Positions 19,321 to 23,423 of a DNA stretch of 64,000 nt are shown piece after piece. Positions within the stretch are counted from its first letter, which is position 1. Each line of letters opens with the position of its first letter. The translations under genes were made by a program, and so were the position numbers. This DNA is from an uncultured Alphaproteobacteria bacterium (lineage in GTDB: Bacteria; Pseudomonadota; Alphaproteobacteria; HIMB59; GCA-002718135), in assembly GCA_902604905.1 (NCBI GenBank), contig CACLAN010000002.1:1560-65559 (forward strand), read 5' to 3'. The notes beneath the pieces were generated by a model that saw only the letters and a program-made list of their open reading frames with translations, had not been told where the DNA came from and did no database searches.

Positions 19321-20310
19321 ATGATATCAAAAGGGGTTAAATCAATATTTCCAATAAAAAACCAAGAAATTTGGGATAGATATAAACAACATATTCAAGC
19401 CTTTTGGACAACCGAAGAAGTATCATTACAGGATGATCTAAGAGATCTAGAAACTTTAAACGATGGTGAGAAACATTTTATTAAGCATGTACTTGCTTAT
19501 TTTGCAAACTCTGAAGCAATGATTAATGAGAACTTAGCAAGCAGATTCTATAAAGAAATATTAATACCTGAGGCAAGATGCTTTATCTCAATTCAAATGT
19601 TAAATGAATCAATTCATGCAGAAATGTATGGTCTTCAAATTGAAGCTTACGTAAAAGATGCGAAAGAAAAAGATAAGTTGTTTGATGCGATACAAAACGT
19701 GCCTTGCATTAACCATAAAGCACAATGGGTATCAAAATGGCTTAATGGTTCTCAAAATCTATTAACAAGACTAATAGGATTTGGGTTGGTTGAAGGTTTA
19801 TTTTTTGCAGGTTCATTCTGTGCAATATATTATTTTAGAAAAAGAGGTTTACTTCCTGGTTTAGCTTTATCCAACGATTGGATTGCACGAGATGAAGGAA
19901 TGCACTTTAGCTTCTCATCATTGATGTTTAGAACCTTAAGAGACAAATTTAATAATAATACATTAACTGATTCGGATATTAGTGATTTATCATTAATTCC
20001 TTCAGATGTTCCTCAATCACAATTTGAAGAAATTGTTAGAGAAGCAGTAGCATTTGAAAAAGAATTTGTTAAAGATGCTTTACCAGTAGATTTAATTGGT
20101 ATGAACGAAGACCTAATGTGTCAATATATTGAAGCTGTTGCAGATAGAATTGCAGATTTATTTGAATTTGACAGAGTGTTTAACACAGAGAATCCTTTTG
20201 ACTTTATGAGAGCTTTGGACGTTCAAAATGTTACAAACTTTTTTGAAAAAAGAGTATCTGAATATCAAAGACCAACAGACAGGGCTTTAAGTTTTGATGA
20301 AGCTTTCTAA
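19321..20310 (+). CDS. nrdB: Class Ia ribonucleotide reductase beta subunit
   Basis: Di-iron ligand motifs NESIHAEMY and ARDEGMHFSF; C-terminal R1-binding tail SFDEAF. Confidence 0.97.
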   Translation: MISKGVKSIFPIKNQEIWDRYKQHIQAFWTTEEVSLQDDLRDLETLNDGEKHFIKHVLAYFANSEAMINENLASRFYKEILIPEARCFISIQMLNESIHAEMYGLQIEAYVKDAKEKDKLFDAIQNVPCINHKAQWVSKWLNGSQNLLTRLIGFGLVEGLFFAGSFCAIYYFRKRGLLPGLALSNDWIARDEGMHFSFSSLMFRTLRDKFNNNTLTDSDISDLSLIPSDVPQSQFEEIVREAVAFEKEFVKDALPVDLIGMNEDLMCQYIEAVADRIADLFEFDRVFNTENPFDFMRALDVQNVTNFFEKRVSEYQRPTDRALSFDEAF

Positions 20311-20549
20311 TGGAAGCTGAGATATATTCTAAAACTAATTGTGGTTATTGTGATAGAGCTAAATTAAGGTTATCTAAATATAATCCAAAAATTTATATGC
20401 TCGATAAGGATTACACAAGAGAAGACTTTTTTGAAAAGTTTCCAAATGCAAAAACTTTTCCTCAAATAATTTTAAACGGTGAAAAAATTGGTGGGTATCA
20501 TGAGCTTGAAAAGTGGTTTGAAATAAATACTTTTGATGAAGAGTTCTAA
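20310..20549 (+). CDS. Small glutaredoxin-like protein coupled to nrdAB
   Basis: CGYC redox motif near the N-terminus, 79 aa, TAATG overlap with the nrdB stop, Grx-like TFPQIILNGEKIGGY segment. Confidence 0.85.
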   Translation: MEAEIYSKTNCGYCDRAKLRLSKYNPKIYMLDKDYTREDFFEKFPNAKTFPQIILNGEKIGGYHELEKWFEINTFDEEF

Positions 20550-20674
20550 GTAACTCTTTTGTTACCCTTTCTTGTATAGGTTTTTTTACTTCTAATAATT
20601 TGTTGTTTGTACTTAGGTAATTTTAAATCTTGAGCATAGGGATTTCGTTTCTTATTTTTTTTTTTGACAGGCAT
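20546..20674 (-). CDS. Unlisted small basic ORF (42 aa), ArfA-like candidate: MPVKKKNKKRNPYAQDLKLPKYKQQIIRSKKTYTRKGNKRVT
   Basis: Hand-translated. The ATG lies 8 nt after the polA stop, and the TAG (20546-20548) overlaps the convergent glutaredoxin stop. It fills an otherwise empty 132-bp gap. 16 of 42 residues are K/R. The motif resembles E. coli ArfA [31 protein letters not shown]. Confidence 0.45.
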   Translation of the reverse strand: MPVKKKNKKRNPYAQDLKLPKYKQQIIRSKKTYTRKGNKRVT

Positions 20675-20681
20675 AAAAAGT

Positions 20682-23423
20682 CTAATGTGCCTGACCCCAA
20701 TTATCACCAGCACCATAATCAACAGTAAGTGGAACTAAAAAGTTTTTATGTTGTAAATGTACTGACTCCATAATTGTTTTTACATTGTTTACTAAATTAT
20801 CATATTTTCTATTTTCTACTTCAAAAATTAATTCGTCATGTACTTGTAAAAGCATCTCTGCCTCAATGTTTTTAAGTTTAATTTCTTTATGAATTTCAAT
20901 CATAGCTAACTTAATAATATCAGCCGCACTTCCTTGTATTGGAGCATTAATAGCTTGTCTTTCTGCAAAACCTCTAACAGCAAAATTCTTATCTGCAATT
21001 CCCTTAATATTAATTTTTCTTTTAAAAATTGTTTCAACATAGCGATTTGTTTTTGCAAAATCAATTTGATGGTCCATATATTTTTTAATCTTTGGATATT
21101 TATTAAAATATTCATTTATGTAATCTTTTGCTTCCGTATTTGAAATATCAAGTTGCTTAGCCAAACCATATGGGCTAATGCCATACAAAATACCAAAATT
21201 AATTGCTTTAGCTTTTCTTCTGTAATCATTATTTATTTGACTATCTTTTAAATTGAATATTTCCTTAGCAGTTGAAGCATGAATATCTTCATTATCTTTA
21301 AAAGCTTTAATAAAATTGTTATCTCCTGAAATTTCTGCAGCTAGCCTTAGTTCTATTTGAGAATAATCAAAACTGACTAGTTTTTTTCCTTTTGCACTAA
21401 TAAAAGCCGTTCTTATTTTTTTACCATTTTCAGTTCTAATTGGAATGTTTTGAAGATTTGGATCTGTAGAACTTAATCGACCTGTTAGTGTATTAGCTAA
21501 ACCAAAAGATGTATGAACTCTACTTTTATTGTCTGTTAATCTAAATAAAGCATCTGTATAAGTTGACTTTAGTTTCGTTAATTCTCTCCAATCAAGAACG
21601 AGTTTAGCAATTTCAAATCCCTCTGAGGATAAATTATTTAAAGTTGAAGAATCAGTAGAATACGTGCCTGATTTTGTTTTTTTACCACCAGGTATTTTAA
21701 GATTAACAAATAATATCTCTCCTAATTGCTTAGGTGATCCAATATTGAATTCTTTTTGTGAAAGTTTATAAATATTTTTTTCAAGTTTTTTACTTTCATT
21801 TTCAAATTCATTACTTAGATTTGTTAAAAACTTTTTATTTACTTCAATGCCATTTGATTCGATTGAAGATAATACCTCTACAAGAGGTAAATCGATGTTT
21901 CGATAAACAAAATTAGCCTTTTCTTTTATTAAACGAGGATAAAGATAATGAAAAAGCCTGAATGTTAATAGAGAATCTTCTGCAGCATAATTAATTGCGT
22001 TATCAATAGTTACTTTATCAAAAGTAATTTCATTTTTCCCTGTTCCAACGATTTCCTTATATTTAATTGTCGTATGATTTAAATGATTAAATGATAGATC
22101 ATCTAAATTGTGTTTAAAAATTCCATTATCTATTGAATAAGAAATTAACATAGTGTCTGCAATTGAATTAAAAACTACCCCGTACTTATTTAAAATTCTA
22201 ATATCATATTTTATATTTTGCCCAATTTTTAAGATCGATTCATTTTCACATATTTTATTAATATTATTAATTACATATTTTTCCTCTAACTGATTATCAA
22301 TTTTTTTAGAACCGTCTAAAGTAGTGTGGTTTATAGGAATATAATAAGAAGTACTTTCACTACAACAAATTGATATGCCAACTAATTTAGCTTTTTCTAT
22401 ATCGAGTGAATTAGTTTCAGTATCTATAGCGCATATGCCATTTTTTTCAATTTCACTTAAAACTTTTTCAAAATTATTCTTTGTATTAATTAATAGATAC
22501 TTTGGCTCTATTTCTTTTTTTTGAACGCTATTATCATTATCACTAGATATAAAAGAATTAGATTTTAATCTTTCAGATATTGATCTAAAACCCTGCTCTT
22601 TAAGAAAATCAAAGATATTATTATTTTCATTTTTTAATTCATTATAAGTTTTTATTTTATTAATACTCTCAGGTATCTGGACATCATGTTTTAGTGTTAC
22701 AAGTTTTAAACTTAATCTAATGTTATTTTCAGCTTCTATTAAAATATTTCTTCTTTTTTCTTGTTTAATTTTATCAAGATTTTTAATTAAACCGTCAATG
22801 TTACTAAATTCATTTATTAATTGAGATGCTGTCTTAGGGCCTATTCCAGGAGCACCTGGAACATTATCTACTTTATCACCTGTTAAAGCTTGAATAAAAA
22901 TAACCTTATTAGGTTTAACTCCAAATTTTTCCTCAACATCTTTTATTTCAATTTTTTTATTTTTCATTGGATCAAGCATTGTCACTGTATTACTAACAAG
23001 TTGCATTAAATCTTTATCCGAGGAAACTATGATAGTCTCGATTTCATCTTTTTCAGCCAACTTAACATAAGTAGCAATGAGATCATCAGCTTCAAATCCT
23101 TCTATTTCTAATTGGGGGATATTAAAGCTTCGTACACATTCTCTAATTAATGGAAACTGTGGAACTAAATCGTCAGGAGCTTCTCCTCTATTAGCTTTAT
23201 ATTCTGGATAAATTTTATTTCTAAAGTTTTCTCTTGCAGCATCAAAAATGACAATCATTTTATCATCACTATAGTCTTCAATCAGTTTTACTAGCATGTT
23301 AGTAAATCCAAAAACTGCATTAATAGGTGTACCGTCAGCACGATTCATTGGAGGAAGACCATAATAAGCTCTAAAAATGTATGCTGAGCCGTCAACTAGT
23401 ATCAATCTACTCTTTTTATTCAT
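20682..23423 (-). CDS. polA: DNA polymerase I
   Basis: 5'-nuclease N-terminus, 3'-5' exonuclease region, and polymerase motifs DYSQIELR and QVHDELIFE; 913 aa. Confidence 0.97.
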   Translation of the reverse strand: MNKKSRLILVDGSAYIFRAYYGLPPMNRADGTPINAVFGFTNMLVKLIEDYSDDKMIVIFDAARENFRNKIYPEYKANRGEAPDDLVPQFPLIRECVRSFNIPQLEIEGFEADDLIATYVKLAEKDEIETIIVSSDKDLMQLVSNTVTMLDPMKNKKIEIKDVEEKFGVKPNKVIFIQALTGDKVDNVPGAPGIGPKTASQLINEFSNIDGLIKNLDKIKQEKRRNILIEAENNIRLSLKLVTLKHDVQIPESINKIKTYNELKNENNNIFDFLKEQGFRSISERLKSNSFISSDNDNSVQKKEIEPKYLLINTKNNFEKVLSEIEKNGICAIDTETNSLDIEKAKLVGISICCSESTSYYIPINHTTLDGSKKIDNQLEEKYVINNINKICENESILKIGQNIKYDIRILNKYGVVFNSIADTMLISYSIDNGIFKHNLDDLSFNHLNHTTIKYKEIVGTGKNEITFDKVTIDNAINYAAEDSLLTFRLFHYLYPRLIKEKANFVYRNIDLPLVEVLSSIESNGIEVNKKFLTNLSNEFENESKKLEKNIYKLSQKEFNIGSPKQLGEILFVNLKIPGGKKTKSGTYSTDSSTLNNLSSEGFEIAKLVLDWRELTKLKSTYTDALFRLTDNKSRVHTSFGLANTLTGRLSSTDPNLQNIPIRTENGKKIRTAFISAKGKKLVSFDYSQIELRLAAEISGDNNFIKAFKDNEDIHASTAKEIFNLKDSQINNDYRRKAKAINFGILYGISPYGLAKQLDISNTEAKDYINEYFNKYPKIKKYMDHQIDFAKTNRYVETIFKRKINIKGIADKNFAVRGFAERQAINAPIQGSAADIIKLAMIEIHKEIKLKNIEAEMLLQVHDELIFEVENRKYDNLVNNVKTIMESVHLQHKNFLVPLTVDYGAGDNWGQAH

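What the first reader, a model, noticed from the sequence alone, without database searches (positions are those of the whole stretch)
20546..20674. Unlisted 42-codon, highly basic ORF with an ArfA-like motif fills the polA / glutaredoxin gap
The 132-bp gap is one of the largest in this tightly packed window. On the minus strand it is an uninterrupted ORF: ATG at 20674 (8 nt after the polA stop) to TAG at 20546-20548, which overlaps the convergent glutaredoxin stop. The product is MPVKKKNKKRNPYAQDLKLPKYKQQIIRSKKTYTRKGNKRVT, with 16 K/R in 42 residues. It aligns by eye with the ribosome-binding part of E. coli ArfA as I remember it ([33 protein letters not shown]). Shared positions are N, L, P, Q, KK, Y-x-RKG, plus the conservative F/Y, R/K and V/I pairs. 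The GKG of the KGKGSY stretch is missing. To my knowledge ArfA is a beta/gammaproteobacterial factor, so a homologue here would be unexpected. A small hairpin (GTAAC-N6-GTTAC, 20551-20566) covers the last codons just before the stop. This recalls the RNase III hairpin that makes arfA mRNA non-stop, but the stem here is weak.
Basis: partly seen in the sequence, partly recalled or inferred. Interest (0 to 1): 0.6.

Follow-up and report, generated by a model that had tools for sequence, protein, structure and literature searches.

The report
GKG-less ArfA-like gene behind polA
The 42-codon frame between polA and the glutaredoxin gene is a real, conserved gene of a marine SAR11-type alphaproteobacterium; it encodes a shortened relative of ArfA, the E. 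coli factor that frees ribosomes stuck on broken messages, in a bacterial class where published surveys find no ArfA.

Summary
It is a real gene. It sits in the same polA -> ORF -> <- grx <- nrdB arrangement in 62 of 62 related loci. It is found in 77 of 115 genomes of its family and in 1 of 71 of the sister family. In-frame pN/pS is 0.14, against 0.78 and 0.93 in the other two frames.

The protein itself hits neither Pfam ArfA, NCBIfam nor the PDB. A profile of 140 relatives without GKG hits only E. coli ArfA chains in the PDB (E 1.3e-4). hhalign gives 92.7% probability. The relatives fall in Pfam DUF7230 and phrog_20887, both of unknown function, and are common in phages. Some intermediate members carry KKGKGSY and pass the ArfA cut-off.

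The lineage has tmRNA, SmpB and an RF2 that keeps the ArfA-binding pocket. No ArfB was found.

The hairpin is not conserved, and there is no hydrophobic C-terminal extension, so E. coli-type non-stop regulation is not supported. Rescue activity is inferred, not shown.

The scan reached the same reading earlier on another genome (e1-5054410).

The parts
20546..20674 (-). 42-codon CDS for a GKG-less ArfA-like small basic protein (DUF7230 / phrog_20887 type)
   Evidence: Searches give the ORF. Searches show conservation. One search gives pN/pS 0.144. Searches show homology to E. coli ArfA. One search gives phrog_20887 at E 3.2e-5.
20597..20644 (-). Codons 11-26 (NPYAQDLKLPKYKQQI), the most conserved block. 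It aligns to ArfA residues 14-29, the RF2-contacting segment. Y22 aligns to ArfA F25.
   Evidence: Alignments. The RF2-contact role of ArfA 15-31 and F25 is from PMC6299226.
20558..20587 (-). Codons 30-39 (KKTYTRKGNK), the basic tail. It aligns to ArfA K33-K34 and S38-H45, the tail that fills the mRNA channel. The GKG of KGKGS is absent.
   Evidence: with a 3-residue gap opposite ArfA G35-K36-G37.
20655..20665 (-). A11 run inside codons 4-7 (KKKN). A9-A10 runs are kept in relatives.
   Evidence: Some single-cell assemblies show 1-nt indels in these runs (L014, L018).
20675..20681 (-). 7-nt spacer between the polA stop and the ORF start. It has no promoter-like or terminator-like site, which suggests co-transcription and coupled translation with polA.
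   Evidence: The spacing is 7 nt in G131, a 4-nt overlap in G123 and 44 nt in G130. Co-transcription is inferred.
20682..23423 (-). polA (DNA polymerase I, 913 aa), the upstream gene on the same strand
   Evidence: Synteny.
20310..20549 (+). Convergent 79-aa CGYC glutaredoxin. Its stop overlaps the ORF stop, a 4-nt gene overlap at 20546-20549.
20550..20565 (-). It is specific to this genome and is not part of a conserved element.
   Evidence: alifold -1.4 kcal/mol over 44 distinct relatives, and the stem is absent in L002-L013; z = +1.13 against shuffles.

Best explanation
The ORF encodes a minimal ArfA-type alternative ribosome-rescue factor.

[quoted passage not shown] The conserved central block (NPYAQDLKLPKYKQQII) then binds and holds a class-I release factor, most likely RF2, with Y22 taking the place of ArfA F25. 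The release factor hydrolyses the peptidyl-tRNA without a stop codon.

It would serve as back-up to tmRNA-SmpB in a lineage where no ArfB was found.

Unlike E. coli arfA, the gene has a normal stop codon right after the functional core, no conserved hairpin and no hydrophobic extension. It sits 7 nt behind polA. It is therefore probably made constitutively at a low level with polA, rather than being de-repressed when trans-translation fails.

Shown: a real gene under purifying selection; homology to ArfA; the partner factors are present in relatives. Inferred: ribosome binding, choice of release factor, rescue activity and mode of expression.
For: Real gene:
- Found in 17/24 genus genomes and 77/115 family genomes, against 1/71 in the sister family.
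- Synteny is kept in 62/62 loci and in three further genera.
- pN/pS is 0.144 in frame, against 0.78 and 0.93 off frame.

Homology to ArfA:
- A profile of the 18 close homologues finds 184 relatives at E<=1e-3 in 1.84 billion proteins.
- A 140-member profile, with GKG-bearing members removed, finds only the 6 distinct ArfA sequences among the 177,635 distinct PDB sequences searched, at E 1.3e-4. It aligns positions 5-41 to ArfA 8-47.
- hhalign against E. coli ArfA gives 92.7% probability, E 4.4e-7.
- Intermediates P0119 and P0100 combine the NPxAxxL...Y block with KKGKGSY/F and pass the PF03889 cut-off, at 43.3 and 29.9 bits. P0119 matches PDB ArfA at E 8e-7.
- Five of the six nearly invariant family positions (N, L, Y, R, K) are identical in E. 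coli ArfA. P20, Y22 (for F25), R25, V26 and K30-K31 also match.
- Conservation is strongest in the segment that contacts RF2 in ArfA (PMC6299226), not only in the basic tail.

Partner factors in relatives:
- SmpB in 20/24 genus genomes and alpha-type tmRNA in 15/24.
- Two class-I release factors and no short ArfB-size RF-1 match in 41 genomes. No ArfB model hit in the 96%-complete G100.
- The RF2 of a congener keeps SPF and GGQ, has I at position 198 and F at 217. Its RF1 has A at 217.

Phage relative: pelagiphage HTVC027P gp30, published as ArfA and highly expressed in infection (PMC12753301), is 52% identical to the ORF over its core.
Against: - No Pfam, NCBIfam or PDB hit for the protein itself, and no ArfA hit with the lineage-only profile.
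- The KGKGS motif is incomplete because GKG is missing.
- In the ungapped register, E. coli A18 aligns to Q15 here (K/Q/R in the family). A18T abolishes RF2 activation by steric clash (PMC8012679). The family's invariant Ala sits one residue earlier, opposite E17. RF2 activation cannot be identical in detail.
- The regulatory hairpin and C-terminal extension that go with arfA are absent.
- The sister family has neither this gene nor ArfB and evidently manages without.
- Anti-correlation with ArfB across 401 alphaproteobacterial genomes is only a trend: 5/28 against 126/373, Fisher p = 0.10.
- There is no expression or biochemical evidence.
- The window's own genome is 59% complete and shows none of smpB, tmRNA or prfA/B itself. 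Their presence is inferred from congeners.
Confidence: 0.6

Rival explanations
1. It is a real small basic protein that is homologous to ArfA but has a different job on the ribosome or on RNA. Examples are a blocker or protector of the mRNA channel, a hibernation-type factor, or a domesticated phage factor that modulates host translation, without recruiting a release factor.
For: - The family is abundant in phages: at least 535 IMG/VR contigs, phrog_20887 of unknown function, and cultured phages of Pelagibacter, Caulobacter, Sinorhizobium and Acinetobacter.
- Pfam files it as a DUF, separate from ArfA.
- GKG is missing, and the position aligned to A18 carries a bulky residue.
- No member without GKG has been assayed. 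No paper mentions DUF7230.
Against: The best-conserved block is the one that contacts RF2 in ArfA, including the aromatic residue at F25 (PMC6299226). That is hard to explain if only channel binding mattered. The family grades without a break into members that pass the ArfA threshold. The RF2 pocket is kept in the lineage.
Confidence: 0.27
2. It is a canonical ArfA regulated as in E. coli. A hairpin near the 3' end would be cut by RNase III or terminate transcription, so that the message becomes non-stop and the protein accumulates only when tmRNA is overwhelmed.
For: This genome has a 5-bp stem (20550-20565). It also has a 7-bp stem with the stop codon in its loop. As in E. coli arfA/mscL, the gene overlaps a convergent gene by 4 nt, which leaves no room for a terminator of its own.
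Against: - Neither stem is conserved in 44 distinct relatives (alifold -1.4 kcal/mol).
- The region folds worse than shuffles (z = +1.13).
- No terminator-like site is found.
- The ORF stops right after the functional core. There is no dispensable hydrophobic tail of the kind that makes full-length E. coli ArfA unstable (PMC8012679).
Confidence: 0.08
3. It is not a gene. The open frame would be a by-product of A-rich composition in a short intergenic spacer, and the ArfA resemblance would be a chance match of lysine-rich strings.
For: The region is very AT-rich (about 28% G+C). The ORF is short, has no evident Shine-Dalgarno sequence and is absent from annotation. The protein alone has no database hit.
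Against: The frame is open in 62/62 loci. pN/pS is 0.144 in frame against about 0.8-0.9 off frame. It is kept across at least seven genera with divergent DNA. There are 184 distant relatives with an ordered, non-repetitive motif. The only PDB hits are ArfA.
Confidence: 0.03

Closest known systems
ArfA (YhdL; Pfam PF03889) of E. coli and other gamma/beta-proteobacteria
   Same: - Small basic protein.
- Collinear core N-x5-L-x2-P-x-[FY]-[RK]-Q-[RQ]-[VI] ... KK ... Y-x-R-K-G-x-K.
- The profile hits only ArfA in the PDB, and hhalign gives 92.7%.
- Aromatic residue at F25; basic tail.
- The lineage has tmRNA-SmpB and an RF2 with the F25 pocket.
- Convergent 4-nt overlap with the downstream gene, as for arfA/mscL.
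   Different: - 42 aa against 72 encoded (about 55 mature).
- GKG of KGKGS is missing.
- Bulky residue opposite A18, with the invariant Ala shifted by one position.
- No hairpin, no non-stop message and no hydrophobic extension.
- Fails the PF03889 threshold.
- Alphaproteobacterial host.
- Lies behind polA, not near the ribosomal-protein cluster.
Pfam DUF7230 (PF23876) / phrog_20887, families of unknown function
   Same: Consensus KRNPIAxDLRTPKYRxRVVKSKKxYxRK. 74/140 relatives hit DUF7230 (best E 3.9e-10). 128/140 relatives, and the window protein itself (E 3.2e-5), hit phrog_20887. No GKG.
   Different: The window protein and its lineage do not reach DUF7230 at all. They are a divergent, chromosomal, syntenic branch (KLPKY in place of RTPKY), whereas much of the family is phage-borne.
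Pelagibacter phage HTVC027P gp30 (published as ArfA, PMC12753301); Citromicrobium phage RXM gp10 (annotated ArfA, PMC8953757)
   Same: gp30 is 52% identical over the 25-residue core (NPVAKEVRTPKYKSQIIKPKK). Marine alphaproteobacterial setting. gp30 is transcribed strongly during infection.
   Different: The phage proteins keep a G[KR]GS loop. gp30 has a 25-residue N-terminal extension and scores 20.2 bits on PF03889, below the cut-off. They are phage genes, not core chromosomal genes.
ArfT of Francisella tularensis and BrfA of Bacillus subtilis (other release-factor-dependent rescue factors)
   Same: Very small (ArfT is 40 aa), unannotated, with a basic C-terminal tail, and acting as back-up to tmRNA. 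[quoted passage not shown]
   Different: ArfT has KKGGSTNKK, lacks a hydrophobic residue at F25 and belongs to another family (PMC6514570). No sequence relation to either was detected here.

Membership tests
ArfA (Pfam PF03889) | Scores above the family's curated profile threshold (25.5 bits) | tested here: not met
   No hit at E<=10 for the protein or for the six-frame own genome. 17/140 relatives hit weakly. Only the GKG-bearing intermediates pass.
ArfA (Pfam PF03889) | Detectable homology to E. coli ArfA over the functional core (residues about 8-47) | tested here: met
   The family profile hits only ArfA chains in the PDB, E 1.3e-4. hhalign gives 92.7%, E 4.4e-7. There is a chain of intermediates.
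ArfA (Pfam PF03889) | KGKGS motif in the tail that fills the mRNA channel | tested here: not met
   KK-TY here against KKGKGSY, a 3-residue gap. According to PMC6299226, no single residue of this tail is essential in E. coli.
ArfA (Pfam PF03889) | Hydrophobic or aromatic residue at F25, which docks into the RF2 V198/F217 pocket | tested here: met
   Y22 aligns to F25, and the column is Y or F in the great majority of relatives. The RF2 of congener G024 has I198 and F217.
ArfA (Pfam PF03889) | Small residue at A18, needed for RF2 activation (A18T is inactive) | tested here: not met
   The ungapped register puts Q15 (K/Q/R in the family) opposite A18, and the invariant A14 opposite E17. A local shift of register on the ribosome cannot be excluded.
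ArfA (Pfam PF03889) | Internal hairpin that gives a non-stop mRNA, plus a dispensable hydrophobic C-terminal extension (regulation by trans-translation) | tested here: not met
   No conserved structure and no terminator. The ORF ends 3 residues after the aligned core.
ArfA (Pfam PF03889) | RF2-dependent peptidyl-tRNA hydrolysis on non-stop ribosomes; synthetic lethality with ssrA | not testable with these tools
   Needs biochemistry or genetics.
DUF7230 (PF23876) / phrog_20887 | Profile match | tested here: inconclusive
   The window protein hits phrog_20887 at E 3.2e-5 but has no DUF7230 hit. 74/140 of its profile-detected relatives hit DUF7230, mostly below the 27-bit cut-off.
ArfT / KGG-repeat family | KKGGSTNKK-type KGG helix | tested here: not met
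   The motif is absent from the sequence. The family is described in PMC6514570 and PMC6299226.

The most novel reading that the evidence does not exclude
The GKG-less DUF7230/phrog_20887 proteins would be a large, unrecognised branch of release-factor-dependent ribosome-rescue factors. This would extend ArfA-type rescue to Alphaproteobacteria (about 4-7% of sampled genomes, and near-universal in this SAR11-like family) and to hundreds of phages. Their way of activating the release factor would differ from E. coli ArfA: no GKG loop, a bulky residue at A18, and possibly use of RF1 as well as RF2. Phages would carry them to keep ribosomes free while host messages are being degraded, or to counter RNA-cleaving defences. 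This lineage would have fixed one such gene behind polA as a constitutive back-up to tmRNA.
Probability: 0.4. Interest if true: 0.75.

Novelty: new variant of a known kind. Interest (0 to 1): 0.62.

Why it matters
Reviews and a survey of more than 15,000 genomes state that ArfA is confined to gamma- and some beta-proteobacteria, with 0 of 2,376 Alphaproteobacteria (PMC8012679, PMC11633108). Many genome-reduced bacteria appear to have tmRNA as their only rescue route.

If this 42-aa protein works like ArfA, three things follow:
- An abundant marine lineage has a hidden second rescue pathway.
- A Pfam DUF and a PHROG of unknown function gain a function.
- Phage-encoded ribosome rescue becomes a widespread theme.

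It also gives a natural minimal ArfA. That version would show which parts of the E. coli protein (GKG loop, A18, non-stop regulation) are dispensable.

The case also shows that small genes of this kind are missed by annotation and by single-profile surveys.

Tried and rejected
- Direct family assignment failed: Pfam and NCBIfam scans of the protein, PF03889 on the six-frame genome, and PDB searches with the single sequence and the lineage-only profile. The only hit was a chance dUTPase match, E 1.2.
- The 140-row alignment was too diverse for the search for related loci.
- tblastn of one DUF7230 member (P0038) against cultured phages found nothing. Two other queries did find matches.
No terminator-like or convincing promoter-like site was found.
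- ARAGORN found no tmRNA in the window's own genome, which is 59% complete. Neither smpB, prfA/B, arfB nor tmRNA was found there, so presence was judged from congeners.
- The phylogenetic-profile test against ArfB gave only a non-significant trend (p = 0.10).
- Structure prediction was not run. A 42-aa peptide that is disordered off the ribosome would give no usable model.

Full report
**1. The observation**

The minus strand of 20546-20674 is an uninterrupted 42-codon frame from ATG to TAG. It encodes MPVKKKNKKRNPYAQDLKLPKYKQQIIRSKKTYTRKGNKRVT, with 16 K/R. Seven bases separate it from the polA stop at 20684-20682. Its last four bases overlap the convergent 79-aa glutaredoxin gene at 20310-20549. 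The window has about 28% G+C.

**2. It is a gene**

- tblastn finds the frame, without stops, in 17 of 24 genomes of the same genus, all incomplete, at 73-83% identity. It finds it in none of 16 genomes of the sister family.
- With a family profile the count is 77/115 in the family (seven of the eight genera sampled) against 1/71 in the sister family. That single hit lies on a short contig of a 4%-contaminated bin.
- All 62 lineage loci that I fetched have the same order, polA -> ORF -> <- grx <- nrdB. Three further genera show the same order, with polA-ORF spacing from a 4-nt overlap to 44 nt.
- In the sister family polA also converges on nrdB, but both grx and the small ORF are missing.
- Over codons 8-37 of 18 loci, pN/pS is 0.144 in frame. 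It is 0.78 and 0.93 in the two shifted frames. 20 of 37 variable columns are third positions.
- The record titles of the relatives are marine single-cell genomes: 'uncultured Alphaproteobacteria bacterium AG-...' and 'Pelagibacteraceae bacterium AG-337-I02'. I infer from this a SAR11-type lineage.

**3. What the protein is**

Searched alone, the protein has no Pfam, NCBIfam or PDB match. The ArfA model PF03889 finds nothing in the genome. A profile of the 18 close homologues does not reach ArfA in the PDB either.

Searched against 1.84 billion representative proteins, that profile finds 184 relatives at E<=1e-3. They are 33-160 aa long, with the consensus KRNP[IVM]Ax[DE]LRTPKY[RK]xR[VI]V[KR]SKKxYxRK.

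Of 140 of these relatives (for Pfam, for PHROGs):
- 74 hit Pfam DUF7230, of unknown function (best E 3.9e-10).
- 17 hit ArfA weakly.
- 128 hit phrog_20887, also of unknown function. The window protein itself hits it at E 3.2e-5.

Three lines tie the family to ArfA:
- **Intermediates.** P0119 (...NPMAKVLASGLYKQRIVKSKKGKGSYTRKGK) and P0100 combine the family's N-terminal block with KKGKGS[YF]. They pass the ArfA gathering score at 43.3 and 29.9 bits. P0119 matches E. coli ArfA chains at E 8e-7. Members of their clusters are named ArfA by JGI, while the GKG-less clusters that were looked up (the window's lineage included) are unnamed or 'hypothetical'. The same hybrids occur in other Alphaproteobacteria (L086, L093, L097).
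- **PDB search with a GKG-free profile.** I removed every GKG-bearing sequence and searched the PDB with the remaining 140-sequence profile. The only six hits at E<=10 are the six distinct ArfA chain sequences (E 1.3e-4). The alignment covers profile positions 5-41 against ArfA 8-47, with one 3-residue gap opposite G35-K36-G37.
- **hhalign.** That profile against E. coli ArfA, taken from the MG1655 record, gives 92.7% probability and E 4.4e-7.

Matches include N11=N14, L17=L20, P20=P23, Y22~F25, Q24=Q27, K30-K31=K33-K34, Y33=Y39, R35-K36-G37=R41-K42-G43 and K39~H45.

The best-conserved block is residues 11-27. It corresponds to ArfA 14-30, which lies within the segment that contacts RF2 and includes F25, the residue that docks into the RF2 V198/F217 pocket (PMC6299226). 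So it is not only the basic tail that is conserved.

**4. Where it departs from ArfA**

- GKG is missing.
- E. coli A18 aligns with Q15 (K/Q/R in the family) in the ungapped register. A18T blocks RF2 activation by steric hindrance (PMC8012679). The family's invariant Ala lies one residue earlier.
- The ORF ends three residues after the aligned core, so there is no hydrophobic extension.
- E. coli arfA is expressed from a hairpin-truncated non-stop message and is repressed by tmRNA (PMC8012679). RNAalifold over 44 distinct sequences gives -1.4 kcal/mol. The 251-nt region folds worse than shuffled controls (z = +1.13). No terminator-like site is found.
- With 7 nt to the polA stop and no promoter-like site of note, co-transcription and coupled translation with polA is the simplest reading. 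This is an inference.

**5. Cellular setting**

The window's own genome is only 59% complete. It shows no tmRNA, smpB, prfA/B or arfB, so I used congeners.

- SmpB is found in 20/24 genus genomes.
- Alpha-type two-piece tmRNA is found in 15/24.
- There are at most two full-length RF-1-domain frames per genome, of about 343 and about 358 aa. No ArfB-sized frame appears in any of 41 genomes, including ten that are over 90% complete.
- The ArfB model NF006718 finds nothing in the 96%-complete congener G100.
- The 343-aa frame is RF2, 45% identical to E. coli RF2. It keeps SPF and GGQ, has I at 198 and F at 217. The RF1 has A at 217.

So the partners an ArfA-type factor needs are present. The gene would be the only known back-up to trans-translation in this lineage.

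Across 401 alphaproteobacterial genomes, 28 have a family member at E<=1e-3 (about 16 of them at E<1e-6) and 131 have ArfB. Only 5 of the 28 have both.

**6. Phages**

- Cultured phages of Pelagibacter, Citromicrobium, Roseobacter, Caulobacter, Sinorhizobium, Agrobacterium and Acinetobacter carry them.
- Pelagiphage HTVC027P gp30 is published as an ArfA-domain protein that is highly expressed early and late in infection (PMC12753301). It reads ...NPVAKEVRTPKYKSQIIKPKKGRGSFKR. It is 52% identical to the window protein over 25 residues. It scores only 20.2 bits on PF03889.
- Citromicrobium phage RXM gp10 is annotated ArfA (PMC8953757).

A phage origin of the chromosomal gene is plausible but untested.

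**7. Comparison with what is known, and novelty**

[quoted passage not shown] A 2024 survey found arfA in 0 of 2,376 Alphaproteobacteria (PMC11633108). No paper in the library mentions DUF7230.

ArfT and BrfA are functional analogues from other families. ArfT shows that a 40-aa, normally terminated, unannotated factor can do this job.

The protein here works most like ArfA and is homologous to it. It fails several defining features of the family as curated: the profile threshold, KGKGS, A18 and non-stop regulation. I therefore file it as a new variant of a known kind, not as a member of PF03889.

The scan has reported the same gene on another genome with the same reading (e1-5054410, and first-reader note e1-3568858). 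I re-derived the homology and the phage distribution independently.

**8. Verdict**

| Claim | Probability |
|---|---|
| Real gene | about 0.95 |
| Homologue of ArfA | about 0.85 |
| Release-factor-dependent rescue factor | about 0.6 |
| E. coli-type non-stop regulation | under 0.1 |

Noticed in passing
window 19321-20549 (+): NrdB ends ...RALSFDEAF. The glutaredoxin that starts on its stop codon ends ...EINTFDEEF. The glutaredoxin therefore carries a copy of the R2 C-terminal tail. The scan has already noted this (e1-3569214).
   Followed up: partly
L100 4432-4650 (E. coli MG1655 arfA) against window 20546-20549: E. coli arfA and the convergent mscL overlap by 4 nt. This is the same geometry as the ORF and grx here. 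In both cases the arfA-type gene has no room for a terminator of its own. It may be coincidence.
   Followed up: no
window 20655-20665 (-): An A11 run forms codons 4-7 (KKKN). Relatives keep A9-A10 runs here and near the 3' end. Some single-cell assemblies show 1-nt indels in them (L014, L018). Runs of this length are known to promote slippage. A -1 slip here would meet TAA at once.
   Followed up: no
L184, L185 (sister-family genomes G025, G026): In the sister family polA also converges on nrdB, but both the RNR-linked glutaredoxin and the small ORF are absent. G025 has an unrelated 83-aa ORF in the gap.
   Followed up: partly
P0013 (metagenome protein): Its N-terminus, MLDTCLLYTSDAADEEDSVDLGGRR, fused to the conserved core looks like adaptor-derived assembly artefact sequence rather than biology.
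   Followed up: no
L191 1426-1602 (Pelagibacter phage HTVC027P gp30): The published 'ArfA' of this pelagiphage scores 20.2 bits on PF03889, below the 25.5-bit cut-off. It overlaps the start of the small terminase gene. Its core is a DUF7230-type block followed by KKGRGSF.
   Followed up: partly
L187 (G024:C6): The RF2 open frame of a congener starts at GGGFDY..., right where E. coli RF2 resumes after its programmed +1 frameshift. The frameshift site is probably conserved in this lineage.
   Followed up: no
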